The position numbers and the translations under genes were made by a program. The notes beneath the pieces were generated by a model. The model was given only the letters and a program-made list of their open reading frames with translations. It did not search any database and had not been told where the DNA came from. A DNA stretch of 57,365 bases, counting the filler, from Stramenopiles sp. TOSAG23-6 (taxonomy: Eukaryota): assembly GCA_900128565.1 (NCBI GenBank). It is 3 parts of 3 records of this genome, joined end to end, with 100 filler letters (N's around TTAATTAATTAA, not from the genome) between each part and the next. Parts side by side here need not be neighbours in the genome. Positions count along the whole stretch, not along the records: positions 1 to 19,122 come from LT636055.1; positions 19,223 to 38,295 come from LT636056.1; positions 38,396 to 57,365 come from LT636057.1. One strand, given 5' to 3'. Positions 9,601-54,824 of this stretch are shown in pieces. Position 1 is the stretch's first letter. The number at the start of each line of letters is the position of its first letter.

Positions 9601-12600
9601 CGACATCATTCCATGTCGCTCCACGATCTCTTGTAATCGAAGCGAGATTGTTAAAATACATCCTATTATCCCACTCTTCTGCCACAGATCTTTTATCATG
9701 ATGAATTTCAACATCAGCTTTTGGGAAGAATTCGTGTTCAGTAATCTTGTGAAGACCAACTAGCTTCCCACTAGGAGTATCAGAGAGAGCTTTATTGACC
9801 AATTTGTTATAGACATTATTCTTTTGAAGAGCTTCCTTTGTTTCAGTCCGCAAACCATCAATTGGTGACCAATATGGAACAAGTAATTCGGGCGAATCTG
9901 AATCTTTTATATCGTTTTCGACAGCGAATGGACATTCGATAAGTGCAAAATCATAAGATCGAATGCTGCCAAATGGGATGTTGAGTGTCACAATTTCATA
10001 TTCACAAGAGGATGGAACAGCTGGTACATTAAAGAATGGAGCTTTAGGAGTATATGAGTCACATCCAGGGTCGTACTGTTTATGGGTTTCCATCAATTTA
10101 CAGTAATTTTCAACATAATTATCACAATCAACTGCGTCGCTGTACGTTGCAGCAGCGCTAATGCATGTTTGATGCTGACAAGGTGTACCGAATTTATCTG
10201 CACTAAAAGCAGAGTAAGGCTGAATGAAAGGCTCAAGTCTGTGATTTTTACAAAAGCCACAGCCTGTGAAATCTTTTCCAAAGGAACCTTCAGCAATAAA
10301 CGTTTGTTCATCCGAATAGCTCTGACATTTTCCTGAAGCAGAAACATTCATGCAACACATTTGACATTCTTTTCCAGGGTTAGGACACACGAAATTCGAT
10401 TCTATGTAAGTACAATCCTCCGAGCACCCAGATGCTGGATTGCCCCCGTCATCGCATCTCTCTCCATATGTTACTACTCCATCACCACATACACTGAGAT
10501 TGCGACAAGCGTCGGATTCCCAAGCCCCTTCATCATTACAAAAGTCAATGTAGCTTTCTGCACACTGCAAAATATTTTCTACATAAAGAGATCCTTTTTC
10601 CTTTTCACACTTCGATTTCATTTTTGCTAGAACAGAACCATCTACAATCACCAATTTGGAATCTTTTTCGGGTTTATCTACCAAAGTTCCATTTTTTTTC
10701 ATCTCTTCAAAATGCCAGGAATCTTCGTTTGGTCTAACGAATCCTTGTGTTGCACTTTCTCTAAGTACACTTTTATGGAAAATTTCACAACTCCCCTCAT
10801 TTGCATCAGAAACTGAAGTGCTAAAAACTTCAATACAAGAATCAAGTGTACATGGATCTACTTTGTCGCTTCTTGTTAACCAATTTTTATCAAATGAGCA
10901 ACTGTCAAGACATCCAGGGTCCTTGGGATTTGCTTTACAGTAAGTGTAAATGGAATCAACACACATCTCTTCACTGTGATTCTCATGCTCATCTGTATCG
11001 CCTAGACTCAAGTTTGTGTCATGTTCATATTGACAATCAAGTAAATCACAATACATTTTCAAACCTGGGTCTTCTTTTTGATCTTTACTTCGAGAATACT
11101 TATTCAAACAGTCACCTCCTTTATTATTTATGTTCCCATCATCTTTCACGTTGTTTTCTTCTCCAGCATTTGGTTTTGGTGATGGCGTTGGTGTTTTCGT
11201 GTTTGGTTGTTCTGCAAGCATACGCTTATGCTCCATATGATTCCATTTGTATAACATTCGACGATGTTTCTGCTTAGTTTGTCTCTCGGCAGCTATCAGA
11301 AAGCACGAATCATCTTCCATACAACGCTTTGCTTCTGGCAAGCATTTTTTTGCACTGTCATTGGATCTCGAACTTTTGACTAAAGTGCATAGTGCATAAC
11401 ACTTTCCGAAAGCTATTGTTTCTTTTGAGCACGTCTTACTTGCATCATGAAAACATTCGAAATCATCAAAAGAATCACCTTGTTTGTTGCATATTTTTTC
11501 GCATTCAAAATCCAACTCTGTTTCAGATTTAGGATCGCTGGTTGCTGGCATATTATTATTTGGAAAGTCTAAGCCACCATCAGGTTCTTCAACATAACAT
11601 GGCTTGCACTGTCTGGAGATACAACCAAAGAAATCATCCCAATTACCACCTTGTTCTGTTTTATCTCTGAATTCAGGAATAGACGTCATGCACGCACTTA
11701 CGTGACAAGTATCTTCGTTGCAACTTTCTGGGCTACCTACTGGACAGCAACTAAAGTTTAGGGCTTTTGCAAGTGAATCGGCACGTGATGTATCCGCACC
11801 TCCAAATTCTTTGTTCTTTTGATCATTAATACAAGTTTTCAGTGCCCTTGCTACAGGGAGAAGCCTACTGTCTTCCACACTGAGTAGCTCAAGCCAATGA
11901 AATTCACCAAGACATTCAGCTTCATCGTTACGATTAAATTCCATACAACTTGCATACTGATCAGGACACCATTGTTTGGCTTTGTCCTTTGATGGCATAA
12001 TCGTGTTCATAAAATTACAACATCCTGACCCGCATTTATCTAACTTACTTTCACACTTCCGATCTTGTTTCATTAGTTCAATCCAGTCATTTGTTGATCC
12101 ACGGTTTCTATCAAAAGAATTAAATCCTAACCTTCTTCCTTTTTTATTTTTGGATATACTTTCCAAACGTCGATGTCCAACTTCCTCCTTGGGTTGAAGA
12201 TCGCTTTCTTTTGTTTTATCGAGTTCAATTTCTACAGTTTTTAACGATGCAAGATTCTTCACTTTAGTATGCAAACAAGCAGGATGTATTGTGAAAAAAA
12301 ATATTTTACAATTTTTTTGTTAGGTACAAAGTTTTGCACAAAAACAAATATTTTACATTCAATTTTGAAAACGTACATCAGATCTACATGTTTTGAGTTT
12401 AAAGGATTCAAAGATATTCCAGCCATAATGACCACATTTTTCGTTTTGACAAACACTTTTATCTGTAAATGCACACTCTGAACTATCGAAATTATAATCG
12501 CCTCGAGCTACTGTTTTCATAAAGCGAGAGCAACCAGTTGGCGTACATGAATTGTCCTTTTTACAAAATTGTTGAACAGCGTGAGAGCACACAGGCCCTG

Positions 12601-15385: not shown

Positions 15386-16031
15386 TTAACTCATATTTTC
15401 TGAAAGCCACTTAAACGCGGTTTCAAGTCCAGCTCCAGTTGTAGCCGTGGAGGGCAAAACGATACACTTTCTATCACCGCAATTTCTATTGGTTTGTAAT
15501 ATATATAGTATAATGAATAATATGGTAAGATTTCAAAAGAAATAGAATATCGCAAATTAAAAAATAAATATCTGAAGAAAAAATAACGTACCTCTCCATT
15601 TCGAAAGCAGATTCCATTTCCGCAACTGAGAGAGCTCCGGGCATATCCTGCTTATTCGCTAGAACCATGATTGCGGATCCTGACAATTGATTATCTGAAA
15701 CAACACCCACAAATTCATCCCTCGCTTTTTGGATTCGTTCTCTATCACTTGCGTCCACAACATAAATTATACCCTGAGTTCCTGTGTAATAGTGACGCCA
15801 ATAAGGCCTTAATCGATCTTGACCACCAACATCCCATATATTTAGGGTTAGCCTTCCTATTTTGACAGTTTCTACATTGAATCCAACCGTTGGGGTAGTC
15901 GAGTGAGTTTCACCGCTATGCATTCGATACAGTATAGTTGTTTTCCCCGCGTTGTCCAGACCCACAAGTAAGCACCGACGCTCGTTTCGATGCCACCATT
16001 CTTTAATCATACGACTCAACCTTTGCCCCAT
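15386..16031 (-). CDS. ARF/ARL small GTPase, 179 aa; exons 16031-15592 and 15485-15386
   Basis: MG N-terminus, GLDNAGKTT, PTVGFNVE, WDVGGQD, NKQD. Exon 2 supplies STATTGAGLETAFKWL. Confidence 0.95.
15486..15591 (-). other. Canonical GT-AG intron, 106 nt
   Basis: ag|GTACGT...AATAG|a restores the ARF C-terminus. Lacks the family TACCTAAC core. Confidence 0.9.
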
Positions 16032-17587: not shown

Positions 17588-19049
17588 TCAGGCTAAAGCA
17601 GGCCAATCCGTCGAGCTTACAATTGAAGTCTTTTGCGAAGTGTCTCTTTTCTTTTCGAGTAATTTTCTTTGTCTATTTTGCTTTGTACTTTCTTTCGCTC
17701 GACTCCGCTGTTGCGAGACATCTTCCACCATTTTAGAAAACTTTTCTTTGGTACTTTCATCTTTTTCTAGTTTTTCTACTGATTGCAACAGATTAGTTGC
17801 TTTAGCGTAAGCACCAATTTCTAAAAGTTTCGGTATATTTAACATTGCCAATTGAGTTTTGACGACGCCACTTAATCTAACAGAATCGACAAATTTTGGA
17901 TTTAGTTTAATAGCATCATCCAATAGAATCTCCGCTCCCAGTAAATCATCTTCAGATATCTTCTGTGTTGCTAACTTCACCAATTGTGTTACAGCAGAGT
18001 TAGCCGATGATTCAAATGTATATATTGTCAAAAGACACGAAATTACAAAAAAAACGTTAGGTATAAAATTTCGTATGAAAAAATAAATAAATTTGAAATT
18101 GAAATTGAAAAAAAAATAAAACATACATTCTTCAATTGAGAATGATTTGGTGACAGAGATAAACCACCAAGAGCTGATAAAGCTGCTTCAATCAAATCAC
18201 CTCTACTGAAAGCGTCGTTACTACGATTCACAAAATCATTTAATTCTATTTCCCAATCGTGGCGAAGTGTCTGCGAAAGTTTTACCACAGCCTTGAATAC
18301 ATCAAATGTACCATCAGGATTAATAATTCCAATACAACTCATTTTGATTCTTTTACCTATTGCTTTTCCCATCTCCCTCCGCTTCAATGCATATATAATA
18401 GGGGTATCGTGATCTTTTGAGTATTGAATAATTTCACTAACACACTTATCAAGACCGGAAGAACCCTCATCAATATTTGTACTAACAATCAACATACGAA
18501 GTTTTCCATTCTTGGCACAACGGTGAACTTCTCTCATACCAAGTACAATTCTTTTTTTCTTTGAATTTATTGTCGATTTTGAACTTAATCTTGCTCGTTC
18601 ATGAAAAAAAAACACCTTTTGTAAAAGTTCGATGACCAATTTGTTTAATTCTTGTGATAATTTTTGTTTTACATATTCACGAACGCCCAAAATATTAGGC
18701 GTTCGAGAAATATGTTTTTCAATAGATGAAAGTTTTGAGTATATATTTGAACCAGATACTTTTTCAAGGACATTTTTAGCATTCATTGTTTCCGTATTTT
18801 GAGTATCTTTGGGATCTTTGGGATCTTTGGGTAAAATGTCATTCTTCTCATTCGCGCAAATAATTTCATCTGAAGATTGTTTTGTGTTTACATTTTCATT
18901 ACTATTTGTATCTTTGCTCATACGATTATTACGAGTTTCTTCTTTCTTCTTCATATTCTGTTTCAACTGTTTCCTTCTCTGAGCTTTCTTTTTTGACTCC
19001 TTTTGTTTCCTTTCGATATTTTGTGCTTCCTCAATGGCAAGTATTTGTA
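17588..19049 (-). CDS. SECISBP2: SECIS-binding protein 2-like (L7Ae domain) with TPR-like tail; 5'-truncated by gap; exons 19049-18127 and 18019-17588
   Basis: REYVKQKLS...KKRIVLGMREV...GLDKCVSEII...PIIYALKRREMGKAIGK matches the SBP2 RNA-binding region. Confidence 0.8.
18020..18126 (-). mobile_element. Introner-like repeat intron, GT...AT, 107 nt
   Basis: aat|GTATGTTTTA...TTTATACCTAAC...ACAATATAT|aca ttt gaa. Joins two overlapping out-of-frame ORFs; there is no AG in the intron. Confidence 0.75.
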
Positions 19050-19122
19050 ATGTATTGTGAAAAAATATTTAAAAAAAAAATCGTTAGGTACAAAATTTCG
19101 TACGAAAAATAAATTCGAAATT
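19050..19122 (-). mobile_element. 3' part of an introner-like intron, cut by the assembly gap
   Basis: TTCGTACGAAATTTTGTACCTAAC...CACAATACAT directly upstream of the SBP2 exon. Confidence 0.8.
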
Positions 19123-19222
19123 NNNNNNNNNNNNNNNNNNNNNNNNNNNNNNNNNNNNNNNNNNNNTTAATTAATTAANNNNNNNNNNNNNNNNNNNNNN
19201 NNNNNNNNNNNNNNNNNNNNNN
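19123..19222. other. Artificial 100-nt scaffold linker
   Basis: Ns flanking TTAATTAATTAA (stops in all six frames). Confidence 0.95.
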
Positions 19223-19300
19223 ATATTTCAAAAANAAATCGTTAGGTACAAAATTTCGTACGAAAAAAAAATTCGAAATTGAAAGAAAAATAAAACATAC
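19223..19300 (-). mobile_element. 5' part of an introner-like intron, cut by the assembly gap
   Basis: cat|GTATGTTTTA...TTCGTACGAAATTTTGTACCTAAC. Confidence 0.8.
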
Positions 19301-20405: not shown

Positions 20406-20724
20406 CTTTATTGCAGAAAGAAATTATCTTATACGTCGTAATCATTAGTTACTGGTTATTACCGGCTACTTTACAAACAAAAACAAGAAACGGAAAAGCC
20501 AATTGGTATTTTTTTGAAACGGAAAAAAAATGGTTTCATCCAATGTGTACCAATTTAGTACAAACGTAGAAAAACCGAAAGTCTCCGAATTTCTCAAATT
20601 ATTATTTTTGAATGTGTGACAAAAAAGATTTCTTCGATAGAGAATATCGATATGGCGAATTTTATAAATTTTACTCTTCAATAATTACGAATGTATATTA
20701 CATATTCTAATTTATTATAGTCAA

Positions 20725-23700
20725 ATGCTGTATTGCCATCATGATATGTATTTCTCATTAGCAATAGTTACAACAATATTGGCATTTGCTGGAAATTCTC
20801 GTGGAACTACTGAAATATTTGGTCCACATTTTACAGACAACTTATCTTCGGAAGAGACATCAACGTATAGAATAAATGGTTCTTATTTAGAGGAGCTGGA
20901 CGAATCATCTAATAGAATGTGTTATAGTGAATTGTCTTCAAATGGTATTGATATTGTTCCTTCAAGTAGATTTGATTATCTATTACAGGAACGATTACGT
21001 TTCCTAGGAAAGAAACGAGTAAAAGACCTGAAAGATCCAGCTGTAGCATCTTTGCCGAATGTAAACGTGATTTCCCCCAAAGTATATCCTTTGTGGTTAG
21101 AATTGTCAGTACCTTTAAGAAAAAAGATGTTATCTGCCGGTGATGGTGATCGAGATGGAAAGAATAAGAATTTCCCTATGAAACCTATACTATCTCAGTT
21201 ACGTGAAAGGTACGATGTGAGAGAGTTATTTCAAGGTGGAAGTCATGGCGAAGTTTGGCGAGCTATCAAAAGTGTTTATAACCATGAAAATCATTCAGAC
21301 AATTACACCAAAGATAAAGCAAGAAATGCTGAACATGTAAAAGAAATATCATTTATACTCAAACGAATGTTTCTAGAAAATGTATGTCTTTAACATGAAT
21401 TTTAATTTGTTTTATAGAAAATTTTATACCTAACAAATTTCGAATTTCAAATATTTCCCCAAAAAACATGGAGAGTATGTAAGACTTGCAGGATTAAGAG
21501 AGATCTATTTTGGTGAATTGCTCAAGGGAAAGCCACACATTGCAAGATTTGTAGAATTCTTTGAAACAAATAGTTTTGAAGAAAAATGTAATGCAGACCC
21601 AATTAATAAAAATACCAACAATCAAAATACAAACAATCCTAATAAAACAAATACAAACAATCCTAATAAAACAAATACAAACAATCCTAATAAAACAGAT
21701 ACAAACAATCCTAATAAAACAGATACAAACAATCCTAATAAAACAAATACAAACAATCCTAATAAAACAGATGAAAAAACAAAATCAGATTTGTGGCTAG
21801 TATTTCATGATGAAGGGAGATCTCTTCGAGATTTTTTATATAGTCGTCATGAGTTAAGCAGTGGTGCCGTGTATGTATGTTTTATTTTTTTTTCAATTTC
21901 GAATTTATTTTTCATACGAAATTTTGTACCTAACGGGTTTTTTTGAAATAGTTTTCCAAAATACATGAACCATCATCTTTATGGCGGGAACTCCGAACGG
22001 GTAAAGGTGGTTTAAATGTTCTTCGAGGTATTTGGTTACAAATTACCGAAGGCGTTGCACTTTTACACCAAATGGATATCACGCATCGCGATTTGAAACC
22101 TTCAAATCTTATTATTTCTCTACCCGAAGATGTCTGTTTTATTTTTTTTCAAATTCTACTTTTTTTTTCGTAGGAAATTTTGTACCTAACAATTATTTTT
22201 TGAAATATTTTTCCAAAATACATGGTTCAAAACCTATAGTAAAAATAGCAGATTTTTCATCTGCCGTGAATGGTCATTCTTTGAAGTTTCTGTATGGAAT
22301 GAAAGGACCAAGTCAAGATGAAGAAACTGTTGAATATCAGCCTCCAGAAGTTTTATTCTCTATTGATATTTCAGATACATATAAAGAAGACGAAACCACA
22401 AAACAATATGATGAAACCACAAAAAAATATGAAAAGAATAAACAGGAAATGAAAAGTGGTTCACCATACTTTAGTGATAATCCAAAAACATATGATTTAT
22501 GGACTCTCGGAGTTATTTTCCTTGAAATGATTTTAGGTACACAGCATGTTTTTGCCGTAAGTGCGAGGACATTTGCTAAACTAGATCATAAAATGAGACA
22601 AGAGAAAAGATCAGATGCTGAACGAAGACAGCTTCTAATACTCACTGGCCTTGCGGAATGGTGTGTGTTCCCAGAACCAAATGCATCATCTTCTGAATAT
22701 AATACAATGAAAGATAAAAACAAAATCTACCTTCCAAAATCGTGGTCATCCAATTATAAACAAAGTCATCATTCGAATAAATTTCATTCCCGGGTTAAAA
22801 CAAGTGGGACAGCTTTGATTAGTCAAGGTGAATGGTGCGGCCTTGAAGCATTTAATCGAACATTACATCGGCGAGATCCTCTCGCTGGTATGTACGTTTT
22901 CCTTTCATTTTTAATAGAAAATTTTGTTCCTAACGAATTTCAAACTACATCAGCGAGATCCTCTCGATGGTATTTACGTGTTCATTTTATTTTTTATAGA
23001 ACATTTTTTACCTAACAAATTTTAAACGTAAAACATATTGTTTCGTAATACATTGGTTTGGGATATGAAAGTCGATGGGCTGTGGATGTACGTTTTCAAA
23101 ATTGCTTTTTTTTTATTTTTTCATACGAAATTCTGTACCTAATGATTTTTTGTAAAATATATTTTTTTACAATGTATCTTTTGTGGCGGTTACTTCGATG
23201 GCATGCGTGGGATAGATTGCCGGTGGAACTTGTCCTTCAACATGCATTTTTTGTTGGTCCTTATACTTGTGATGCTGATGATGCGTGTACAGGTAAAGAA
23301 TTTGCATTACCTGTACGTTTTCATAAATAATTTCAAATTTATTTTTATTTTTCATACGAAATTGTGTACCTAAGATTTGTTTTTTTGAGATGCTTGTTTT
23401 CATCATGAATTTCAAATTTGTCATATTTTCCAAAATTCATGGTGAACGCGACGAATTTGTGGTAGCATTACAAAGCAATTCTCTTGATAATTTGAACCCA
23501 TCAAAATCTTTTATGGAGTCAGAAATTGGTACACGAAATCATCCGATTATTCCAGTACCATTAGGCAAGGAAAATACAGAAATAAATAAAAAAGTAGAAA
23601 AGGTAGATAAAATTTTTGAAGACTCATATAGGGACCGACCTATACAACCAGAAAAATTCTGTTGTGCTTCTTGTGGTCGTTGCTTTGATAGAGCCAAGAG

Positions 23701-25331
23701 GTACGTTTTCATGATGCATTTCAAAAACGTTTTTTATTTTTTTTTTTTTGTATGAAATTCCGTACCTAACAATTTTTTTTCTAAAATATTTTTTTATTAC
23801 ACATTTGTGACCGGCACGTTATTGCAAGACGCCATAATGAAGATAAAGATCTTCCGTCATATTGCTGGCATAAACATGAGCATAAAAAAGAAATGTTTTG
23901 GGAATGCTCCACAAATATAAAACGAAACGTAGGTGGTCTTGAGAATACTCGATTATATGGCTGGTGTGGAACGCCTGGACGTCGAAATTATGGCATGGAA
24001 GACTTTGCGTCTGTTGGCTACTTAAATATAAAAAACGTCGTATTTTCAAATGAAAACAAAGTTGATTGGTTCGCTTTGTTTGATGGGCACGGAGGTAATG
24101 GTACTGCTTCATGGAATGCTGGCTTATATAATGATAGAAGTAATAATGTAGATAATGAATATTTAGGAAAAGAGGATGATACGGTCAATAAACACAGTCA
24201 AAATCTTTCTAAAACAAACCATGGTTTACACGTACATCTTGCTGCTACAGTAGCTAATTTTTTATTACTCCCGAGCAGTATTTTAAATACAAGTGTTGAT
24301 GATATTTCAGATTTGAGTGAAAATTCAATGGAATATTTGAATGATGTGAATGAAATTCATGAAATAACAGAACAACACAAGGGTCGCGTTTGGTGGGAGA
24401 AGGAACTTCTTGAAGATGCCATCAGTGAAGCATTTGATGCAGCTGATGAAGAAATATTGAATATGGTGGAGAATGAAAATAATGATGAAATAAATGTACC
24501 TCAGATTATAGGAAAGTCTGGATCTACTGCAACTATGTATGTTTTATTTTTTTTCAAATTCGAGTTTTTTTTCGTACGAAATTTTGTACCTAACAAAAAA
24601 CCATTTGAAATATTTTTCCAAAATACATATTACTAATGGGTTCTGAAACTTTAATGATAGGAAATGTTGGTGATTCGACTGCTATTTTATGTTGTGATGA
24701 AAATGATGAACCTATTGTTTTAAGCGAAGACCATTTACCCAGTCTACCGTCTGAACGATTACGTATTGAAAGTATCCCTGGTGGTCATGTACGTTTTCAT
24801 GATGAATTTCGAATTTATTTTTCATACGAAATTTTGTACCTAACGAATTTCGAATGTTTGAAATATTTTTTTTAATGCATGTTCATTGTCCTTCACTATC
24901 TGATATACATCATGGTTTTGGAACTTGTCGAGTTCAAGGGCAATTAGCGGGTACATTTTTATCATTAATTTCAATTTTGTTTAGTAGAAAAATTCCGTTT
25001 CTAACAAATTTCGAATGTAATATATTTTCACAAAAGATCAGTCTCACGATCACTTGGAGATTCCTCTTTGAAGCCTTACGTCTCTTCCTCTGCGTTTACT
25101 AGTCAATATGATTTCAAGGGATATGAAGAGTTTGCTATTATAGCTAGTGATGGACTATGGGAATCGCTATCTTTTAAACAAGCTGTAAGTCTTGTGCGTG
25201 ATTCTTTTTATGAAACGAGTCATCTCCGAACTGGTGAAACCTTATTTGAGGGGGCAGCAAGAAGGTTAGTTGAAGAAGCATACTTTAGAGATAGTGGAGA
25301 TAATATTGCAGCTTTAGTTATAGCTGTGTAA
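20725..25331 (+). CDS. Protein kinase - C2H2 zinc finger - PP2C phosphatase fusion, ~1191 aa, 11 exons
   Basis: After removing 10 family introns: GGSHGEVWRA, FILKR, HRDLKPSN, IADFSSA, YQPPE, YDLWTLG; CASC-x12-H-x5-H; GRRNYGMED, LFDGHGG, SGSTAT, NVGDS, GQLAVSRSLGD, IASDGLWE, DNI. Exon lengths sum to 3576 nt, a multiple of 3. Confidence 0.88.
21382..21469 (+). mobile_element. Introner-like intron, GT...AT, 88 nt
   Basis: aat|GTATGT...TATACCTAAC...AAAAACAT|gga. An in-frame GAG 6 nt downstream is an alternative acceptor. Confidence 0.75.
21625..21770 (+). repeat. Coding tandem repeat, 24 bp x ~6 (TNNPNKT[N/D])
   Basis: Repeated aatacaaacaatcctaataaaaca inside the kinase domain. Confidence 0.95.
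21875..21966 (+). mobile_element. Introner-like intron, GT...AT, 92 nt
   Basis: tat|GTATGTTTTA...TTGTACCTAAC...CCAAAATACAT|gaa, in frame to HRDLKPSN. An internal TAG 15 nt upstream is also in frame. Confidence 0.8.
22132..22223 (+). mobile_element. Introner-like intron, GT...AT, 92 nt
   Basis: gat|GTCTGTTTTA...CCAAAATACAT|ggt links HRDLKPSN to IADFS. No AG is in phase with this donor before DFS. Confidence 0.85.
22892..23053 (+). mobile_element. Introner-like intron, GT...AT, 162 nt, with internal duplication
   Basis: ggt at|GTACGT...TAATACAT|t ggt gives RDPLAGIGLGYESRWA. Confidence 0.75.
23088..23177 (+). mobile_element. Introner-like intron, GT...AT, 90 nt
   Basis: gat|GTACGT...TGTACCTAAT...ACAATGTAT|ctt. 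No AG inside. Gives WAVDLLWRLLRW..DR (kinase subdomain XI). Confidence 0.8.
23313..23440 (+). mobile_element. Introner-like intron, GT...AT, 128 nt, composite
   Basis: cct|GTACGT...CCAAAATTCAT|ggt. Includes a second 5'-half copy from about 23389. Confidence 0.7.
23701..23804 (+). mobile_element. Introner-like intron, GT...AT, 104 nt
   Basis: ag|GTACGT...CGTACCTAAC...TTACACAT|t restores exact C2H2 spacing. Confidence 0.85.
24537..24628 (+). mobile_element. Introner-like intron, GT...AT, 92 nt
   Basis: at|GTATGT...CCAAAATACAT|a gives the PP2C motif SGSTATILLMGSETLMIGNVGDS. Confidence 0.88.
24789..24880 (+). mobile_element. Introner-like intron, GT...AT, 92 nt
   Basis: cat|GTACGTTTTCAT...TAATGCAT|gtt. 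No AG in the intron; in frame to RVQGQLA. Confidence 0.85.
24951..25041 (+). mobile_element. Diverged family intron ending in canonical CAG, 91 nt
   Basis: g|GTACAT...TTTCTAAC...CACAAAAGATCAG|tc gives GQLAVSRSLGD. Confidence 0.8.
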
Positions 25332-25491
25332 TGAATAAACAAATACAAAAAGGATATATATATATTTACTGTATAAATTTATTAGTTACTTTTACAGACA
25401 TCGTTGTGTTTTCATAACTGAATACGAAATACAACAGTACTGGTATACTTTATTGTATTAAATGTATTTCATATCCAATTGTCACGTTTAT

Positions 25492-25563: not shown

Positions 25564-25634
25564 TTAAAACATATGTCTCAGATAAATATAACATGTAGTT
25601 AAACTTGAACAGTTAAAATTTAGTTGTAAAAACT

Positions 25635-27089: not shown

Positions 27090-27832
27090 TCACTTTTCTT
27101 TTGGTTTAAAATAAAGGTAATAAAGAGCTATACCACCCCACATTAATAGAAGAAAAATAACAAGCGAGTTATATAAAAAATATGTCAAATTCGAAATTCG
27201 TTAGGTACGGAATTTGGTACGAAAAAAAAAATGAAATGTATGATGAAAACGTACATAATATACCAGAATTTAGACGTGAAGCCCCCAAAATATTTTCCCT
27301 TTGATTTTTTATTTCCTCGCTTCTTTGAAGGTTTTGAAGGGTTTACATCGACGGCCACAGAAATTGGATTTTCTACTTCATTCTTTTGATTATTTTCTTT
27401 TTTTGATCCTTTTGATTTTTTACGGCGTCGTTTTTTCTTACGTCCTTTTTTGGGGACTTTTTCGATTTTTTCTGTCTTCTTTGAGTCTTTTGAGTCTTGT
27501 GGTAACGAAGTATGTTCTCCATGTTGTGGACTGTCTGGAGCATGATCGTGACTGTTTCTGAGCCAAACTTCAGAAGAATCTAAACCAACAGCAATTTTGT
27601 TCTCTTTTATCCTGGTGCTTTCTGCAACATCAGGATTAACCACCTCGTGAGCTTCCACTGCTACTTTGTTTTTGTTGTCTTCAACTCGAACGTCACTCTT
27701 TTCTGTTGGTTCTGTGGTAGATATCGCTGATTTTGCAACTGGAGTAGCACTTTCCTCTTGTACGGGCATAGTTGATTCTAAAGTGTCTGAATTATCTTTA
27801 CGGCGGGAAAACGCTCTCTTCAGCTTTTTCAT
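27090..27832 (-). CDS. Lys-rich tail-anchored membrane protein, ~214 aa; exons 27832-27255 and ~27156-27090
   Basis: Removing the family intron yields a C-terminal TM segment KFWYIIFLLLMWGGIALYYLYFKPKEK. Confidence 0.6.
27157..27254 (-). mobile_element. Introner-like intron, probably GT...AT, 98 nt (acceptor uncertain)
   Basis: at|GTACGTTTTCATC...CCGTACCTAAC; 3' end diverged. GTTAT|t gives the TM frame and there is no nearby in-phase AG. Confidence 0.65.
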
Positions 27833-38395: not shown

Positions 38396-38449
38396 TTTGT
38401 ACCTAACAAATTTTAGTTTTTTTTTTTGAAATATTTTTCCAAAATACAT
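38396..38449 (+). mobile_element. 3' part of an introner-like intron, cut by the gap
   Basis: TTTGTACCTAAC...GAAATATTTTTCCAAAATACAT. Confidence 0.8.
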
Positions 38450-39244
38450 GGAGTTTGTTGCAAATTTTAATGCAGCGTATGATGCTCTAGGTGCTGGAAC
38501 TGACGGTTTACTAAAAAAAGGACTAGAATTATCAATGCAAGTTCAACGTGGTGTAGTTACATTAGGTACTTCAATAATTGAGAAAAAACAAATTCGTAAA
38601 TCTGGGCCATTCAGGTATACATTATTATCTCAGTTGACTGACAATGATGCTTTGTTATTTACTCGTCCAGGACCTCTCGCTAAACTTGCACGCTTTATAT
38701 CATCCGCAAAACGTCAAGTTGATAAACGTTGGCGTGGGCGTAAAAATGTACCATGTACGTTTTCATCATGAATTTTAAATTTACTTTTTTTTTCATACGA
38801 AATTTTGTACTTAACAAAAATAATTTTGAATATTTTTTACAATACATATATTTTGTGTTGCCTGGATGATAATAATTCTAGATTTGTTATTGTTGGTATT
38901 GTTGGATCATCGAATCCAAATACAAATACCGATGCTGGTATGTCTCTAATCGATGTCTCCCAGAGTGTTCGTTTAGGGCGGGCTTTTGAACTTGCTGGGA
39001 AAGAAGTCAATGGTACGTTTTCATAATGAATTTCAATTATTTTTTTTCGTACAAAATTCCGTACCTAAAAAAAATTGTCAACCAAAAAAAAAATATTTTT
39101 TTTCACAATACATGTAGTGTTTCAGGAGAAGAGAATCAAATGCAAGAAGTATACGGTTTCGATAAAGCCGTAGCGACAGTACAGAAAAATGATGTTCAAG
39201 CATTTTTGTCAGTTTTGATGGAAATTCTTGAAGGTGTTCATTGA
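38450..39244 (+). CDS. CDC45: CDC45 C-terminal part, 5'-truncated; exons 38450-38754, 38848-39012, 39114-39244
   Basis: NFNAAYDAL...GLELSMQVQ...IIEKK...FRY...FTRPGPLAKLARF...PYILCCL...VIVG...GRAF...FD...DVQAFL follows the CDC45 C-terminal pattern. Confidence 0.8.
38755..38847 (+). mobile_element. Introner-like intron, GT...AT, 93 nt
   Basis: cca t|GTACGTTTTCATCATG...ACAATACAT|at. In-frame stop inside and no AG inside. Confidence 0.85.
39013..39113 (+). mobile_element. Introner-like intron, GT...AT, 101 nt
   Basis: aat g|GTACGT...CACAATACAT|gt, in frame. A CAG 12 nt downstream is also in phase. Confidence 0.7.
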
Positions 39245-40494: not shown

Positions 40495-40530
<36 letters not shown>

Positions 40531-41650: not shown

Positions 41651-43165
41651 ATGTCGCATCTTCCTGAACCTTCAGTTTGGGGTTTGAGTCCTCTCCATTG
41701 GACATTCACAAAACTATTTATAGTTCAATTGCATGCTTTAGAAGAGCCTGATCAATATCTAGACACACACTGGTTGTATGGTTGTCCTATAACACGAGTA
41801 CACATTTTTGGAACTATTGTTAGTGTCTCACAGAAATCGAAATTCTTGACATATGGTATAGATGATGGCACTGGTGTCGTAGATTGTCTTTTGTGGAAAC
41901 GAGATACAACTGAAATAAACTCGGATATCGTTTCTGATGAGGGAGACGAAAATAGTACTTTATGTTTGGGAGACTCTGTTTGTGTGTATGGAAGGTTACG
42001 AAGTGCGAAACCGCCTTACTCTCTTCTGCGAAGTATTACTATAGACTCTATATCAGTTATCCATGTACGTTTTCATCATGAATTTCGAATTTATTTTTTT
42101 GTACCAAATTTTGTACCTAACAAACTTCNAATTTTGGAAATATTTTTGCACAGCACATGACTTAAATTTAGAAGCCCACCATTGGCTTGAGGTTGTCGAT
42201 TTAATGCAAACAATATATCCACAGGGTTCATCACATTTCACAAATTGTATAAAAAGTAGAGTAAAGGAAGTAAACGTGAAAAGAAAAAAAATTCTCAAGT
42301 ACGTTTTGATCAAATTTTATTTTTTTTTACTCGAAAATTTCAAATTTGACCAAATTTTTATGATTTTCAAATTCGCCATATTTTTTTCACATGTAGTTCG
42401 GACACATCATCAACGTCTTCTGTCAAGACAGATAAAAATGAGTCGGCTTTTCTTGATGCTGTAAAGATGTATATACTCAACAATTTTGGTCCTTCTTCAA
42501 CGATTGTGTGGAGCTCAATGTACGTTTTTATTATGAAATTCTATTTTTTTTTCATACGAAATTTTGTACCTAACAAAAAACATTTTGAAAAATATTTTTT
42601 CATGTAACATATTTTCCAATCCTAAACTTCGTGATATTGCTCAACGCCAAGCAATGCATCAAACTAAAGATAAATCAATGATTTCAGCACTTGTACATAA
42701 AATATTTATACGAGCAACTAATCAACTCATCTCTCAGAACTTTTGGTATTTATCGAATAAAGAATGTGACGAATATCGACTTTTAAGTCACAAACTTGCC
42801 TTAGCCAATGAAGTTCGTTTTTTGTATAAATATAACGGTGTGGATCAAAATAATGGCGAAAGGGCTTCATCTTATGCAAATGGATGGCAAACGAAGGATT
42901 CAAACAAAACATTATTGTCAAAATCAGAACTAATTGAAAGTCTTGGTCGCGTGTACGTTTTCATCTCAAATTTCAAATTTGGTTTTTTTTTTATACACAA
43001 TTTTGTACCTAATGAATTTTACAAAATATATATATATATATTTCACAATGCATACCTCATTTGGCGACATTGAGCCAAAATTGCATTATAGAAAAAATAA
43101 ACCAGTTATTATGGGAAGGTGTCATTTATGAGGAAAATTTTGAATTGTACGGATGTGTTAACTAA
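41651..43165 (+). CDS. STN1: STN1-like CST subunit (OB fold plus winged-helix-like C-terminus), ~376 aa, 5 exons
   Basis: PITRVHIFGTIV...YGIDDGTGVVDCLLW...LGDSVCVYGRL...DLNLEAHHW; C-terminal LLWEGVIYE. Exons 41651-42064, 42159-42298, 42397-42519, 42611-42952, 43054-43165. Confidence 0.8.
42065..42158 (+). mobile_element. Introner-like intron, GT...AT, 94 nt
   Basis: cat|GTACGTTTTCATCATG...CAGCACAT|gac. The CAG 5 nt upstream is out of frame. Confidence 0.85.
42299..42396 (+). mobile_element. Diverged family intron ending in canonical TAG, 98 nt
   Basis: aa|GTACGTTTT...TTCACATGTAG|t. Using the family-type CAT end would give an immediate stop. Confidence 0.7.
42520..42610 (+). mobile_element. 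Introner-like intron, GT...AT, 91 nt
   Basis: at|GTACGT...TTGTACCTAAC...GTAACAT|a ttt. No AG in the intron or in the next ~55 nt. Confidence 0.8.
42953..43053 (+). mobile_element. Introner-like intron, GT...AT, 101 nt
   Basis: gt|GTACGTTTTCATC...CACAATGCAT|a opens the EGVIYE frame. An in-phase GAG lies ~20 nt downstream. Confidence 0.75.
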
Positions 43166-49285: not shown

Positions 49286-49442
49286 ATTGTCCATCTTCAA
49301 AATGATGAGTCTAAACAATACGAGAATTATTAGATTATTGTCCATCTTCAAAATAATGAGTCTAAACAATCAATACGAGAATTATTAAATTATTGTCCGT
49401 CTTCAAAATAATGAGTCTAAACAATACGATAATTATTAGATT
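49286..49442. repeat. Tandem repeat, ~51-55 bp x 3, abutting the ATPase stop codon
   Basis: attgtccRtcttcaaaatRatgagtctaaacaat...aattattaRatt three times. Confidence 0.92.
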
Positions 49443-52400: not shown

Positions 52401-54824
52401 CACGAATTCCAGCAGTTTTACAGAGTTTCACCGCACCTGGTACTTGAGGTCTAGCAGGATCAATCATAGCAAAAAGACCAAGGAAGTTAAGTGGTGTAAA
52501 TGAATCTTCGTGTGGTGGCATTTTTGGGTTTTGAGGGGCATTTCGGTCATTTCCAATTGGAAAGTTAGCGTTGTCTTCATCATACTCGAAATCTTTACCG
52601 TACTTTCGTGGAAGCTCAAGTTCACAAAAGCCAAGAACACGAAGACCATCTTCTGCGCATTGTTCCTGAAGAGCAATGATTTTCTCCTTTTCTGCTGCGT
52701 CGAAAGGAACAAGGTCAGCTTTACCAGAACCATTATCTTTCCAAATTTTATCGCACCTATTCCAAATTCTTTCTGGTGCTCCTTTCATCACAAGTAAAGA
52801 TGATTTCTTCTCATCATCCCAATGAATACCAACTTGGTATTTATTTTTAGAGTTAAAAGGTATTTGGGCAATTCGTGGATATTCTTCGTTGCATTTAGTC
52901 ATATAATTAGACAGAGCTCCTTCAGTATCCAAGTTACCGTCAGCGTCTTTAGAATTCATCATCTGTGCGAACTTAGCTAACGCAGATTCAGTAGCATCAC
53001 CAAGTGGTTTCCAATTATATTGTTTTTGTTTACGACCATCAATGTCGACGATAGTCATAAATGGTTTTGGACGACTGGTATCAGCGATACTTAGCGCAGG
53101 GTTATTTGGATCCGGTTTTTTATGGTATAATGTTGTATTATCCCATTTAACATTATTGCACAATGTGGCACAACGCAAGAGCTTGTCAAAGGTTCCTCTT
53201 TTTTTAATTGATGCAGCGGTAACAGTATCGGGTTTGTCAGCACGGGAACCAGTATCGGCCTGGTATGCACAATTATCAAATACAACTCGTTCAACAGTCA
53301 TTTATTGTGAAAACAAAAAAGTGTGAAAACATTTGTTAGGTAAAAAACAAATTACGAAAAAAACATTTAAAATTCGTAATGCAAACATACATCATATTTT
53401 GAGTCAAAGTTCCAGTTTTATCCGAGCAAATACAAGAAGTTGATCCGAGCGTTTCGACACCTTCAAGATTCTTTACGAGAACATTATTATTCGCCATTCG
53501 ATGGGCAGTTAATGCCATACACACAGTTACAGTCGCAAGTAAACCTTCAGGTACATTAGCAACAATAATTCCAATCATGAAAACAAGGTTTGTAATCATT
53601 TCTGTTTTGATGATAATCCAACCGAAAAGAAAAAATGAAATTCCCAAAATGAAAGCAATCGACGAAACTATAGTGACAAAGTGATGAATTTGTTTGTTAA
53701 TAGGCGTCTGTACAGTCTCTGTGACGGTTGTTAGAGAAGCAATACGACCCATAACAGTGTCATCACCCGTTGATACTACAATACATTTCATCGATCCTTT
53801 AACGACCTCCGTACCAAAGAATGCAAGATTTCGTGTTTCAAGAGGATTCTCATCAGTGCAAGAAGTTTCACGTTTTACGGGTTCAGCTTCACCAGTAAGC
53901 GATGCATTGTCAACTTCAACAGTTCCTGATACTGATAAAACACGGACATCAGCAGGTACTTTATTTCCAGCCTTCAACTTAATGATGTCTCCAGGGACGA
54001 GCATCGTTGCGTTAATTTCCTTAGGTTGGCCATCACGAATAACAATTGTTGTTGATGGAAGCATATTCTTAAAACTGTCCATAAGATTAGATGATTTTCG
54101 TTCCTGGCAATATCCAAAAACACCAGTGAGAAACACTACCGCAGCAAGAACTATACCTAAATAAAGATTATCTTGTTCTTTTTTCAAACCAAACCCAACG
54201 AAGCACAAAGCGGCACCACCCCATAGTAAAAGTGAAAAAAATCCCGTCATCTGCTCCATGAATTTGATGAATTCACTCTTTGTCTTTGGTGGAGTAAGCT
54301 TATTTTCACCATATTCATTGATTTTCTCGAACCACAACTGTTCACTAATTCCCTCATTCTTCGACTCCACTAACACGAAACCACCATCAGAAGTCATATC
54401 AAACTCAAAGTGACTTGCAAGATCATTTCTGACATCCCCAATGTCCATCGTATGCCATTTGAGCTTCAATTCCTTCTTCAAGTTCCCCAAATCCTCAACT
54501 TCTGCACCGCCAAAGCAAGGACAGGAGAAGTTTGCCTTATTCGAGGTTTTCGTATTTTCTTCTAACGATTTCGCCCCTGTTGAGTTGAAAAGATATAAAG
54601 TCAATGGTACACATAATGAGCTACATTGGTAAAGATAAAGAGTATAATTAAAAGCACTGATGTACAAAAGTTATGAGAGATAATTCATTCAAAAATATTT
54701 GAACACAAAGGCTGGAACACTTACTCGAATCAATCGTAGACACCATCCCTTTCTGTTTAACAGTTGCGCCAATAACAGCGATTTCCGACGACTGACTTCG
54801 CGAAACATTGATTCTATCACTCAT
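49441..54824 (-). CDS. Na+/K+-ATPase alpha subunit-like (P2C), ~1714 aa; exons 54824-54725, 54576-53391, 53299-49441
   Basis: VANVPEGLLATVTV, CSDKTGTLTQN|MMTV, MKGAPE, TGDGVNDAPAL, LKKSIAYTLSSNIPEI, C-terminal NTYY. Confidence 0.95.
53300..53390 (-). mobile_element. Introner-like intron, GT...AT, 91 nt
   Basis: atg at|GTATGT...TTTACCTAAC...CACAATAAAT|g act gtt. No AG in the intron; restores DKTGTLTQNMMTV. Confidence 0.92.
54577..54724 (-). other. Canonical GT-AG intron, 148 nt, unrelated to the family
   Basis: tcg a|GTAAGT...TCAACAG|gg; phases match. Confidence 0.85.

What the first reader, a model, noticed from the sequence alone, without database searches (positions are those of the whole stretch)
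12284..53390. A repeated intron family that appears to splice GT...AT instead of GT...AG
Seen: 23 copies (20 complete, mostly 88-107 nt) of one repeat interrupt 8 genes. For 18 of the 20, excision from GT (GTAYGT, one GTCTGT) to a terminal AT (mostly AATACAT; also TAT, AAT) restores the frame, and in the ATPase, kinase, PP2C, C2H2, CDC45 and STN1 genes it rebuilds conserved motifs. Many copies contain no AG at all, and the next exonic AG is usually out of phase or deletes conserved residues. Established: the 3' AG is nearly invariant in U2 introns, and Introners are transposon-derived intron families. Inference: this lineage routinely splices GT-AT introns, which are most of the introns in this window. 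I do not know of a described system like this, but I cannot search to confirm novelty.
Basis: partly seen in the sequence, partly recalled or inferred. Interest (0 to 1): 0.96.

Follow-up and report, generated by a model that had tools for sequence, protein, structure and literature searches.

The report
Mobile intron family spliced GT...AT
A roughly 90-base mobile element has inserted about 23 times into the coding sequence of eight genes of a marine protist and is removed as an intron that starts with the normal GT but ends in AT instead of the near-universal AG, a rule-break known on this scale only from a few planktonic tunicates.

Summary
A profile search finds 22 places at E<0.01, and I read 23 loci in 8 genes, all in the sense direction of the host gene. 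Of 20 complete copies, excision from GT (GTAYGT) to a terminal AT restores the frame in 18. One copy needs an AG at the same element position. One is untestable.

Removing ten copies fuses one 1211-aa kinase/C2H2/PP2C frame. Close orthologs and conserved motifs fit across 11 GT..AT junctions: 10 without a gap, one with a 1-aa gap three residues away. One more junction fits an AG 3 nt further on. This includes two copies whose boundaries cannot slide to AT..AC.

RNA contigs stop matching at intron boundaries, while DNA contigs run through them. The introns carry U2-type signals: GTAYGT, a TACCTAAC branch-like box 30-45 nt from the end, and a T tract. They show no conserved fold. AT lies just upstream in 14 of 20 copies, which looks like a target-site duplication.

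The host resembles a marine stramenopile-like protist, not a tunicate. The closest precedent is the MITE-derived introns of Fritillaria. I rate it a new variant of a known kind, with limited RNA proof.

The parts
12284..12376 (-). Copy, 93 nt, GTACGT...AATACAT, in the giant Cys-rich ORF
   Evidence: Removal gives a 3219-aa frame. No AG inside.
18020..18126 (-). Copy, 107 nt, GTATGT...ATATAT, in the L7Ae-domain gene
   Evidence: Removal gives a 457-aa frame. The end 4 nt further on (ACAT) is out of frame.
19047..19128 (-). 3' part of a copy, cut by a scaffold gap
   Evidence: nhmmer E=1.8e-11. N runs.
19216..19300 (-). 5' part of a copy, cut by a scaffold gap, in the C-type-lectin gene
   Evidence: Two RNA contigs from two samples of one study (coded P3) match down to 19300 and then carry 313 letters that are not in the window. 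A DNA contig runs on to 19263.
21382..21469 (+). Copy, 88 nt, GT..AT, kinase/PP2C gene junction 1
   Evidence: Gapless against ortholog P0124. The in-phase AG 6 nt downstream would delete 2 aligned residues. A DNA contig runs through it.
21875..21966 (+). Copy, 92 nt, GT..AT, junction 2
   Evidence: Gapless against the ortholog. An RNA contig's match starts at 21965, with 5 further letters to its left.
22132..22223 (+). Copy, 92 nt, GTCTGT...ACAT, junction 3
   Evidence: No gap at the junction; a 1-aa gap lies 3 residues downstream. The RNA contig's match ends at 22129 and the record goes on for 124 letters.
22892..23053 (+). Composite copy, 162 nt, two partial units with a duplicated exon fragment
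   Evidence: Frame restored. 1-aa excess at the junction against the ortholog, unresolved.
23088..23177 (+). Copy, 90 nt, ends GTAT, junction 5
   Evidence: Gapless inside a fully conserved stretch of the ortholog.
23313..23440 (+). Composite copy, 128 nt, ends TTCAT, upstream CT, junction 6
   Evidence: Gapless against the ortholog. A DNA contig runs through it.
23701..23804 (+). Copy, 104 nt, upstream AG rather than AT, C2H2 finger, junction 7
   Evidence: The boundaries do not slide. The split codon gives the Ser that the ortholog has; a shift of -1 or -2 would give Ile.
24537..24628 (+). Copy, 92 nt, PP2C core, junction 8
   Evidence: Gapless in a conserved PP2C motif. The next AG is out of frame. 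The RNA contig's match ends at 24534 and the record goes on for 32 letters.
24789..24880 (+). Copy, 92 nt, ends GCAT, junction 9
   Evidence: No gap at the junction. All five AGs within 200 nt of the donor are out of frame.
24951..25041 (+). Divergent copy, GTACAT...GATCAG, most likely GT-AG
   Evidence: The AT end (25038) adds one residue to a conserved PP2C motif. The AG end (25041) matches the ortholog exactly.
27171..27254 (-). Copy, about 84 nt, before a very short last exon
   Evidence: nhmmer E=1.2e-14. The 3' end cannot be tested.
38396..38449 (+). 3' part of a copy after a scaffold gap, in CDC45
   Evidence: Core plus ...AATACAT, then the CDC45 frame begins.
38755..38847 (+). Copy, 93 nt, GT..AT, in CDC45
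   Evidence: Gapless against the 66%-identical ortholog P0128.
39013..39113 (+). Copy, 101 nt, upstream TG rather than AT, in CDC45
   Evidence: The AT end is gapless (score 719). An in-phase TTTCAG 12 nt downstream needs a 4-aa gap (score 696).
42065..42158 (+). Copy, 94 nt, ends CACAGCACAT, in STN1
   Evidence: The AT end keeps a 378-aa frame. The CAG 5 nt upstream breaks it.
42299..42396 (+). Family member ending in AG (…CACATGTAG), in STN1
   Evidence: The frame needs AG; the AT 4 nt upstream breaks it. In the alignment its AG sits in the same columns as the others' AT.
42520..42610 (+). Copy, 91 nt, ends AACAT, in STN1
   Evidence: Frame restored. All four AGs within 200 nt of the donor are out of frame.
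42953..43053 (+). Copy, 101 nt, upstream GT rather than AT, ends GCAT, in STN1
   Evidence: Frame restored.
53300..53390 (-). Copy, 91 nt, GTATGT...ATAAAT, in the P-type ATPase just after the phosphorylation motif
   Evidence: Removal gives a 1712-aa frame. It rebuilds the QNxMTV motif that is near-invariant in the homologs. tblastn pieces abut.
15486..15591 (-). Unrelated canonical GT-AG intron (GTACGT...CCAATAG) in an Arf-family GTPase: a comparison, not a family member
   Evidence: Removal gives a 180-aa Arf protein. Pfam Arf positions 4-142 and 147-173 fall on the two exons. Its interior is no more like the family than shuffles are.

Best explanation
These are spliceosomal (U2-type) introns created by a short non-autonomous mobile element, that is, an 'introner'. 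The element begins with its own 5' splice site, GTAYGT. It carries a branch-site-like box (TACCTAAC) and a T-rich tract, and it ends in ...AAT(A/G)C. It inserts at an AT, and the duplicated AT at its 3' side serves as the 3' splice site. Cutting from GT to that AT therefore removes the element plus one copy of the duplication and restores the original reading frame exactly.

The host's spliceosome accepts YAT as well as YAG at a position 30-45 nt behind the branch box. It passes over several earlier AT dinucleotides, and in two copies it passes over an earlier AG. So the 3' site is probably defined by distance and by the extended motif T-tract + CACAAT(A/G)CAT, not by the last two bases alone.

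Shown here: the family exists, its orientation, frame restoration, fit to orthologs, presence in DNA, and RNA contigs that break at the boundaries.

Inferred: the U2-type mechanism, the role of the box as branch site, the AT as a target-site duplication, and how the AT end is recognised.
For: Family and copy count.

Orientation: all 23 loci are in the sense orientation of their host gene.

Frame: GT..AT restores it in 18 of 20 complete copies. Ten removals in a row give one 1211-aa frame.

Ortholog P0124 (1136 aa, same kinase + PP2C architecture): 7 of 10 junctions are gapless under GT..AT, 1 has a 1-aa gap three residues away, 1 has a 1-aa excess, and 1 fits AG at +3.

CDC45 ortholog P0128 (66% identical): both junctions are gapless under GT..AT, and it prefers AT over an in-phase TTTCAG 12 nt downstream.

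ATPase: the near-invariant QNxMTV motif is rebuilt.

Non-sliding copies: 23701 has AG upstream instead of AT, and only the exact GT..AT boundaries give the ortholog's residue (a slide in either direction changes it). 39013 has TG upstream, and the residues exclude the AT..AC-type shift, though a 1-nt slide gives the same product.

Conservation: the terminal A is 20 of 20 and the terminal T is 19 of 20. The AC before it is only 15 and 14 of 20, and the upstream exon AT is 14 of 20.

Signals: GTAYGT in 18 of 20, with one GTCTGT and one GTACAT. A TACCTAAC-like box lies 30-45 nt from the end in 17 of the 19 copies that have a box. There are 3-11 AT dinucleotides in between.

RNA versus DNA: four RNA contig pieces stop matching at 19300, 21965, 22129 and 24534 while the records continue. 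Contigs of a separate DNA run cross 19300, all of 21382-21469 and all of 23313-23440.

Target site: AT lies immediately upstream in 14 of 20 copies against a 9.4% background, binomial p about 1e-10.
Against: No junction-spanning read or joint was actually displayed. The joint table was filled with cross-matches between repeat copies (15 rows shown, 380 not shown). So the acceptor side is seen in RNA for one copy only, and only as the end of a match. Runs were contigs, not raw reads.

The RNA libraries also hold many contigs that carry the element (summed depth in the thousands at repeat positions). These could be retained introns, pre-mRNA or DNA carry-over.

For 14 of 20 copies the mRNA cannot tell GT..AT from AT..AC.

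Two family members use AG.

Terminal inverted repeats are only about 4 nt (GTAY / RTAC), which is weak for a DNA transposon. No transposase, empty site or whole genome could be examined.

One junction (22892-23053) is off by one residue against the ortholog.

The terminal T was not checked base by base in an independent DNA run. Table 3 lists no variant there, but it shows only 40 of 99 rows.
Confidence: 0.8

Rival explanations
1. The same inserts are spliced two bases to the left, as AT...AC introns (|ATGTAYG...AATAC|). AT-AC is the terminal pair already known to work in both spliceosomes. On this reading GT..AT is a bookkeeping choice.
For: 14 of 20 copies have AT just before the GT, so both cuts give the same mRNA. 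The three RNA contig ends on the + strand sit 2 nt left of the GT/AT boundaries, as expected when the AT can be placed on either side.
Against: Six of 20 copies lack the upstream AT (CT, AG, GG, TG, AA, GT) and still keep the frame only with the same cut. At 23701 and 39013 the ortholog's residues fit GT..AT and not the -2 shift. The intron-terminal AT is invariant (20 of 20 A, 19 of 20 T). The would-be terminal AC (15 and 14 of 20) and the would-be 5' AT (14 of 20) are not. GTAYGT is a textbook U1/U6-type 5' site (recalled).
Confidence: 0.07
2. The family spreads by reverse splicing or intron transposition rather than as a DNA transposon. The upstream AT would then be a preferred 'proto-splice site', not a target-site duplication, and the terminal AT would belong to the intron itself.
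For: Inverted termini are only about 4 nt. There is no conserved hairpin. All copies are sense-oriented, which reverse splicing would produce directly. The six copies without an upstream AT need no extra mutation under this reading.
Against: Sense-only orientation is equally expected from selection against unspliceable antisense insertions in coding exons. Palindromic internal blocks and two sub-families look like MITEs. Surveys report that introners derive from DNA and retro-transposons of most orders (PMC12130899, passages read).
Confidence: 0.2
3. The inserts are not removed correctly. The interrupted genes are decaying pseudogenes, or they use cryptic AG sites, and the frame restoration is coincidental.
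For: In-phase AGs exist 6, 12, 27 and 45 nt downstream of four copies. RNA libraries contain many element-bearing contigs.
Against: Eighteen of 20 in-frame excisions cannot be chance when 1 in 3 is expected. Ten consecutive excisions give one 1211-aa frame that aligns end to end with an ortholog. Where an AG alternative exists and could be tested (21382, 39013), the ortholog prefers AT. Essential genes are hit (CDC45, a P-type ATPase).
Confidence: 0.03
4. The elements are cut out of the DNA, like the internally eliminated sequences of ciliates that are bounded by a short direct repeat, rather than out of the RNA.
For: They are short, AT-rich inserts in coding sequence, bounded by a 2-bp direct repeat of which one copy stays behind.
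Against: Contigs of a separate seawater DNA run carry the inserts at about the same depth as flanking single-copy sequence (records 9 and 11, depth 6-8). All copies are sense-oriented and carry 5' splice-site and branch-like motifs, which DNA excision does not need. The standard genetic code keeps multi-kb frames open.
Confidence: 0.02

Closest known systems
Non-canonical, MITE-derived introns of the larvacean tunicates Fritillaria borealis and F. pellucida (Henriet et al. 2019, cited but not read; Soo et al. 2026, PMC13326754, sections 4 and 21 and passages read; review PMC11282704, passages read)
   Same: Short transposon-like introns inserted at lineage-specific positions. A 3' AT is used as the intron end on a large scale (44% of F. 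pellucida and 34% of F. borealis introns). The last three bases are YAY, with a YAY often just upstream of the 5' site, which is the duplication logic seen here (YAT end in 17 of 20 copies, AT upstream in 14 of 20). A U-rich tract is kept, and the U2-type spliceosome does the work.
   Different: In F. borealis the main classes are AG/AC and AG/AT, so the 5' site is non-canonical too. Here the 5' site is a strong canonical GTAYGT and only the last base deviates. The host here is not a tunicate: its ATPase is closest to protist (stramenopile) forms. Whether the host has duplicated U2AF subunits, as F. borealis has, could not be tested.
Introner elements of Micromonas pusilla and Aureococcus anophagefferens, and the wider introner surveys (Huff 2016 recalled; PMC12130899 passages read; PMC7789003 passages read)
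   Same: Families of near-identical introns in unrelated genes. They are non-autonomous, sense-oriented in genes, and carry splice signals, and a splice site appears to be built from the target-site duplication. The hosts are marine protists.
   Different: Described introners in those algae use canonical splice motifs (PMC7789003 says so for Aureococcus). The 2025 survey treated AG and AC as the accepted 3' ends and discarded families with unfamiliar ends unless transcripts backed them (PMC12130899, methods passage). A GT..AT family in an unannotated assembly would therefore have been missed.
Non-canonical introners of the parasitic dinoflagellate Amoebophrya (PMC7789003, abstract and passages read)
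   Same: Repeated introns with 3-5 nt direct repeats across the exon/intron borders in a marine protist. More than 60% of its introns are non-GT-AG.
   Different: Those have no preferred terminal dinucleotides and rely on 8-20 nt inverted repeats that pair the intron ends. Here the ends are uniform (GT, AT) and no conserved pairing exists.
Rare GT-AT introns of the minor (U12-type) spliceosome (Sheth et al. 2006, PMC1557818; search listing and abstract start only)
   Same: The same terminal dinucleotide pair exists in nature as a rarity.
   Different: U12 introns have an RTATCCTT 5' site and a TCCTTAAC branch box 10-20 nt from the end (recalled). Here the 5' site is GTAYGT and the box lies 30-45 nt from the end.
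Nonconventional introns of euglenids and hemistasiid diplonemids (PMC12621601, abstract read)
   Same: Abundant introns without GT-AG ends in marine protists.
   Different: Those have variable ends brought together by extensive base-pairing. This family has fixed ends, U2-type linear signals and no conserved fold.

Membership tests
Introner (transposon-derived intron family) | Many sequence-similar introns in unrelated genes | tested here: met
   23 loci in 8 genes. nhmmer E down to 8e-17. Best pairs are 84-89% identical.
Introner (transposon-derived intron family) | Similarity extends beyond the species' general splice signals | tested here: met
   Interior median identity is 0.66 against 0.57 for shuffles. 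An unrelated intron of the same window scores 0.56.
Introner (transposon-derived intron family) | Target-site duplication at the borders | tested here: met
   AT lies upstream of the GT in 14 of 20 copies against a 9.4% background (p about 1e-10), matching the terminal AT. A proto-splice-site preference would look the same.
Introner (transposon-derived intron family) | Terminal inverted repeats or other transposon termini | tested here: inconclusive
   Only GTAY...RTAC, about 4 nt. There is an internal palindrome (TTTCGTACGAAA) but no long TIR.
Introner (transposon-derived intron family) | Lineage-specific positions (absent from orthologs) | tested here: inconclusive
   The ortholog cluster of P0124 includes a 1136-aa product called on a 12.9-kb contig filed as a bacterial MAG. 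This implies one uninterrupted frame, but I could not fetch its DNA.
Introner (transposon-derived intron family) | Autonomous partner element, or intergenic copies | not testable with these tools
   No genome is held. No copies were found in the collections scanned.
U2-type spliceosomal intron | 5' splice site GTRWGT-like | tested here: met
   GTAYGT in 18 of 20 copies, with one GTCTGT and one GTACAT.
U2-type spliceosomal intron | Branch-site consensus (YTRAY) 18-45 nt upstream of the 3' end, followed by a pyrimidine tract | tested here: met
   A TACCTAAC-like box lies 30-45 nt from the end in 17 of the 19 copies with a box. A T-rich tract follows. This is sequence evidence only; the branch point was not mapped.
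U2-type spliceosomal intron | 3' terminal AG | tested here: not met
   The terminal dinucleotide at the family's 3' position is AT in 19 of 20 complete copies and AG in 1. One of the 19 more likely uses an AG 3 nt further on.
U2-type spliceosomal intron | Removed from RNA, present in DNA | tested here: inconclusive
   RNA contig matches end at the boundaries of 4 copies. DNA contigs cross 3 copies. No joint row for these copies was displayed.
U12-type intron | RTATCCTT 5' site and TCCTTAAC box 10-20 nt from the end (recalled definitions) | tested here: not met
   The 5' site is GTAYGT. The box differs and lies 30-45 nt from the end.
Fritillaria-type non-canonical intron | YAY as the last three bases and often just upstream of the 5' site | tested here: met
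   YAT end in 17 of 20 copies. Upstream positions -2 and -1 are A and T in 16 of 20 each.
Fritillaria-type non-canonical intron | Non-GT 5' ends (AG/AC, AG/AT) in a larvacean tunicate host | tested here: not met
   GT in 20 of 20 copies. The nearest named relatives of the ATPase are stramenopiles at 54%, against 44-47% for vertebrate Na/K pumps.
Euglenozoan nonconventional intron | Intron ends brought together by base-pairing | tested here: not met
   RNAalifold gives 0 pairs on 18 copies. Single-copy fold z-scores run from -2.7 to +0.2, with 4 of 6 indistinguishable from shuffles.
Ciliate-type eliminated DNA segment | Absent from the bulk (somatic) DNA | tested here: not met
   Contigs of a separate DNA run carry the inserts at single-copy depth.

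The most novel reading that the evidence does not exclude
A marine protist lineage outside the animals has independently evolved routine use of an AT 3' splice site by its major spliceosome. The driver would be an introner whose 2-bp AT target duplication supplies the intron's last two bases. If so, hundreds to thousands of GT-AT introns may exist genome-wide. The host should then carry an altered 3'-site recognition system (U2AF1/U2AF2, SF1 or second-step factors), convergent with the changes in Fritillaria.
Probability: 0.55. Interest if true: 0.85.

Novelty: new variant of a known kind. Interest (0 to 1): 0.8.

Why it matters
The 3' AG is the most conserved feature of spliceosomal introns, and why it is fixed is an open question. 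So far the only organisms known to ignore it on a genomic scale by using AT are a few larvacean tunicates.

A second, unrelated lineage with a clean single-base deviation would be a natural experiment. Here the 5' site, branch box and T tract are canonical, and only the last base differs (T instead of G). Members of the same family end in AG at the same position. That makes it possible to ask what actually selects the 3' site and what has to change in U2AF and in second-step proofreading.

The case also shows how a transposon can turn its target duplication into a splice site. In addition, gene finders and introner surveys that accept only AG or AC ends will miss such introns, and will mis-annotate every gene that carries them.

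Tried and rejected
- The window's own genome: none is held.
- Earlier scan notes by place and by sequence: nothing.
- ESM Atlas for the ATPase: it gave only the family, no usable taxonomy.
- Metagenome contigs. The 20-mer of the element gave 0 hits. The 16-mer gave 118 loci (80 listed), all single chance matches from assorted habitats, with no profile hit at E<=1e-3.
- GTDB genome contigs. No relative of the ortholog P0124 was found. The 20-mer hit one Bacteroidales MAG contig, with only a 30-nt profile match (E=5e-4), which I took as chance.
- STN1 orthologs: none found, so the four STN1 junctions rest on frame alone.
- Rfam at gathering threshold and ARAGORN: nothing in the window, so no snRNA or SECIS.
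- Consensus and single-copy folding: no conserved structure.
- Read laying joints. The listed rows are jumps between different copies of the repeat. I read them as cross-matches between repeat copies, not splicing.
- Read laying coverage. Parts of the stretch without RNA cover say nothing. The junction at 27474 lies in an A-rich low-complexity stretch and was set aside.
- The 30-letter loose end beside 19300 is not in the window, so the exon it comes from lies in the scaffold gap.
- Exhaustive donor/acceptor enumeration on the ATPase against 6 homologs. It fixed the excised length at 91 nt but not the exact position; a +10/+10 shift scored marginally higher on BLOSUM62. Position was settled by the near-invariant QNxMTV motif instead.
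- U12-type, euglenozoan-type and DNA-elimination readings: rejected, see membership tests.
- Literature (CC-licensed PMC plus bioRxiv only). No paper holds 'GT-AT' together with 'introner'. The 23 papers with 'GT-AT', 'non-canonical', 'introns' and 'genome' treat it as a rarity (21 listed, titles and abstract starts only). No paper holds 'uncultured stramenopiles' + 'canonical' + 'introns'. Among the 15 listed papers on marine stramenopile genomics, 'non-canonical splice sites' occurs 0 times. Two of them have no main-text use of 'intron', and the only 'splice' hit is a title in a reference list.
- Supplements were closed, and subscription-only papers (including Henriet 2019) were not searchable.

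Full report
**What is there.** The window is a draft eukaryotic scaffold. It has compact genes, few introns, and multi-kb frames that stay open under the standard code. There are two N44-linker-N44 joins.

A short AT-rich repeat is scattered through 12.3-53.4 kb. Its 9-nt core occurs 29 times with up to one mismatch, against 6.2 expected. A profile built from 15 copies finds 22 places at E<0.01. By inspection I count 23 loci:
- 20 are complete. Two of these are composites containing a second partial unit.
- 3 are cut by the scaffold joins.

The consensus begins GTACGTTTTCAT, or GTATGTTTTATTTT in a second sub-family. It has a palindromic middle and a box TACCTAAC, then a T-rich stretch, and it ends CACAATACAT.

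The best pairs are 84-89% identical. Interiors stripped of the splice-signal parts are still more alike than shuffles (0.66 against 0.57). The one unrelated intron in the window is no closer to the family than shuffles are (0.56). So this is a true repeat family, not just a strict splice consensus. Earlier notes of this scan raised that possibility for another alga.

**They sit in coding sequence and come out in frame.** Every locus lies inside a gene, in the gene's sense orientation.
- An automatic longest-frame rule gave 15 of 19 copies in frame for GT..AT.
- Three of the four misses were my own boundary picks. The true donors are the second GT at 21875 and 22892, and the true end of the 18126 copy is at 18020. 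With these, long frames appear.
- Removing ten copies between 21382 and 25038 gives a single 1211-aa frame holding a kinase, a C2H2 finger and a PP2C phosphatase.
- Single removals give 1712 aa for a P-type ATPase, 3219 aa for a giant Cys-rich protein and 457 aa for an L7Ae-domain protein.
- In STN1, four removals give 378 aa, but only if the copy at 42299 is cut at its AG.
- In all, GT..AT keeps the frame in 18 of 20 complete copies, one needs AG, and one precedes a nine-codon last exon and cannot be judged.

**Orthologs fix the junctions.** A 1136-aa protein with the same kinase + PP2C architecture (P0124) aligns along the whole spliced model.
- Seven of the ten junctions are gapless under GT..AT. 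Several lie inside fully conserved stretches.
- One has a 1-aa gap three residues away.
- The composite at 22892 has a 1-aa excess.
- At 24951 the AT cut adds one residue to a conserved PP2C motif, whereas an AG 3 nt further on fits exactly.

A 66%-identical CDC45 (P0128) is gapless across both CDC45 copies. It prefers the AT end of 39013-39113 (score 719) over an in-phase TTTCAG 12 nt downstream (score 696, 4-aa gap).

In the ATPase, the upstream exon ends just after the phosphorylation motif and the downstream exon supplies the TV of the near-invariant QNxMTV. An exhaustive scan of boundaries fixed the length at 91 nt, and the motif fixed the position.

So 11 junctions are supported as GT..AT by relatives, and one as GT..AG.

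**Is it really GT..AT?** In 14 of 20 copies the exon ends in AT just before the GT, so a cut two bases to the left (AT..AC) gives the same mRNA. Three facts favour GT..AT.
- The six copies without that AT still keep the frame only under the same rule. In two of them the split codon then matches the ortholog, where the shifted cut would not.
- The intron's last two bases are A in 20 of 20 and T in 19 of 20. The two bases before them, and the exon AT, vary.
- GTAYGT is a classical 5' splice site (recalled).

The copy at 42299 aligns column for column with the others but ends in G instead of T. So the same position serves as 3' site with either base.

**RNA and DNA.** The stretch 20600-30599 is held almost fully by DNA runs labelled with one coded organism, and by seawater metagenomes. 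Seawater metatranscriptomes hold 8-15% of it. I laid contigs of three RNA runs and one independent DNA run on 19236-38295.

Four RNA contig pieces end at intron borders while their records go on:
- Two records match down to 19300, the donor G, and then carry 313 letters that are absent from the window.
- One 294-letter record matches 21965-22129. That is the exon between two copies, displaced by the ambiguous AT. It has 5 and 124 further letters.
- One record matches 24335-24534 and has 32 further letters.

DNA contigs run through the donor at 19300, all of 21382-21469 and all of 23313-23440.

This fits splicing at the stated borders, but it is not proof. The joint table was taken up by cross-matches among repeat copies, and no joint for these copies was shown. 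The runs are contigs, not reads. The RNA libraries also contain many element-bearing contigs.

Summed depth at repeat positions in the DNA run is about a thousand-fold that of single-copy sequence. The tool warns that this is no copy number, so I take it only as a hint that the family is very abundant.

**How it most likely works.** The linear signals are those of a U2-type intron: the 5' site, a YTRAY-type box 30-45 nt from the end in 17 of 19 copies, and a T tract.
- There is no conserved fold that could bring the ends together. The signals do not match the U12 type (recalled definitions).
- Between box and end lie 3-11 other AT dinucleotides, and in two copies an AG that would break the frame.
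- The end is therefore not 'the first AT'. The extended motif and the distance must matter.
- AT enrichment just upstream (14 of 20, p about 1e-10) matches the terminal AT.
- The simplest reading is a 2-bp target duplication. The element supplies GT and the duplication supplies the last two bases, so splicing removes element plus one duplicate and heals the gene.
- Reverse splicing into AT| sites would give the same picture. The inverted termini are only about 4 nt, so the mode of spread stays open.

**The host also has ordinary introns.** An Arf GTPase gene carries an unrelated GTACGT...AG intron. The Pfam positions of its two exons abut.

**Who is the host?** The ATPase is a long (1712 aa) form.
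- Its best matches are unnamed marine proteins at 55-59% identity.
- The nearest named ones are the stramenopiles Incisomonas marina and Stephanopyxis turris at 54%.
- Vertebrate Na/K pumps reach 44-47%.
- The 90% identity cluster of the ortholog P0124 includes a protein filed under a bacterial marine MAG, evidently a mis-binned eukaryotic contig.

I conclude that the host is a small marine protist, probably a stramenopile, and not a tunicate. This is inference from two genes.

**Comparison and novelty.** The nearest described system is the larvacean Fritillaria.
- There 3' AT is the commonest intron end, and a YAY triplet marks the end and often the upstream flank (PMC13326754, sections read).
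- Its non-canonical introns carry TIRs and TSDs that indicate a transposon origin (review PMC11282704, passages).
- Its 5' sites are also non-canonical, and the host is an animal.

Protist introners are well known, but they are described with canonical ends. The largest survey accepted only AG or AC 3' ends (PMC12130899, passages). Amoebophrya and euglenozoan non-canonical introns depend on pairing of the ends (PMC7789003, PMC12621601).

My searches found no report of a GT-AT intron family. They cover only open-licence papers and preprints, and supplements were closed.

I therefore rate this a new variant of a known kind. RNA support is partial, and the mechanism of 3' recognition is inferred.

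Noticed in passing
window 25638-26273 (-), TGA at 26070-26072: A thioredoxin-fold gene has an in-frame TGA exactly where the first Cys of the CxxC active site should be: the upstream frame ends in ...APW and the downstream frame starts GHCK. Pfam Thioredoxin positions 31-102 start right after it. This is a candidate selenoprotein. No SECIS was found at Rfam gathering threshold.
   Followed up: partly
window 17588-19068 (-): A protein with an L7Ae domain and long charged flanks. It might be a SECIS-binding-protein-like factor, which would fit the candidate selenoprotein nearby. Only the Pfam domain was seen.
   Followed up: no
window 19123-19222 and 38296-38395: Two scaffold joins of the form 44 N, a 12-nt all-frame stop linker, 44 N. 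Both lie inside copies of the repeat, so the assembly broke at the family. RNA contigs carry 313 letters beyond 19300 that are not in the window, and the first ~410 residues of CDC45 are missing before 38396. The joined pieces are therefore not truly adjacent.
   Followed up: partly
window 20668-25331 (+): Kinase, C2H2 finger and PP2C phosphatase form one ~1200-aa protein with an asparagine/threonine-rich repeat insert. The only long relative found (1136 aa) has the same architecture. Its 90% identity cluster includes a protein filed under a 'Parcubacteria' MAG, which looks like a mis-binned eukaryotic contig.
   Followed up: partly
window 22866-23053 (+): A tandem duplication of about 23 nt of exon plus the 5' part of the element. 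In the second unit the GT is mutated to TT, and the whole 162 nt appears to be removed as one intron. There is a 1-aa mismatch to the ortholog at this junction.
   Followed up: partly
window 15486-15591 (-): The only intron found that is not a family member: a canonical GTACGT...AG intron in an Arf-family GTPase gene. It shows that the host uses AG ends too.
   Followed up: yes
window 49441-54670 (-): The P-type (Na/K-like) ATPase is 1712 aa, with a long extension beyond the usual C-terminal domain. Unnamed marine and stramenopile proteins of 1500-1600 aa share this form.
   Followed up: partly
copies at 18126, 19300, 21875, 22132, 24537 versus the rest: There are two sub-families. One starts GTATGTTTTATTTTTTTT and ends CCAAAATACAT. 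The other starts GTACGTTTTCATCATGAA and ends CACAATACAT. This suggests at least two bursts or source elements.
   Followed up: no
window 12-27 kb and 38-43 kb: Copies are clustered: 10 in one 4.7-kb gene and 4 in STN1. The two ORFs of about 9-10 kb hold 1 and 0. The copy-rich regions are also the lowest in G+C (31-33%).
   Followed up: no
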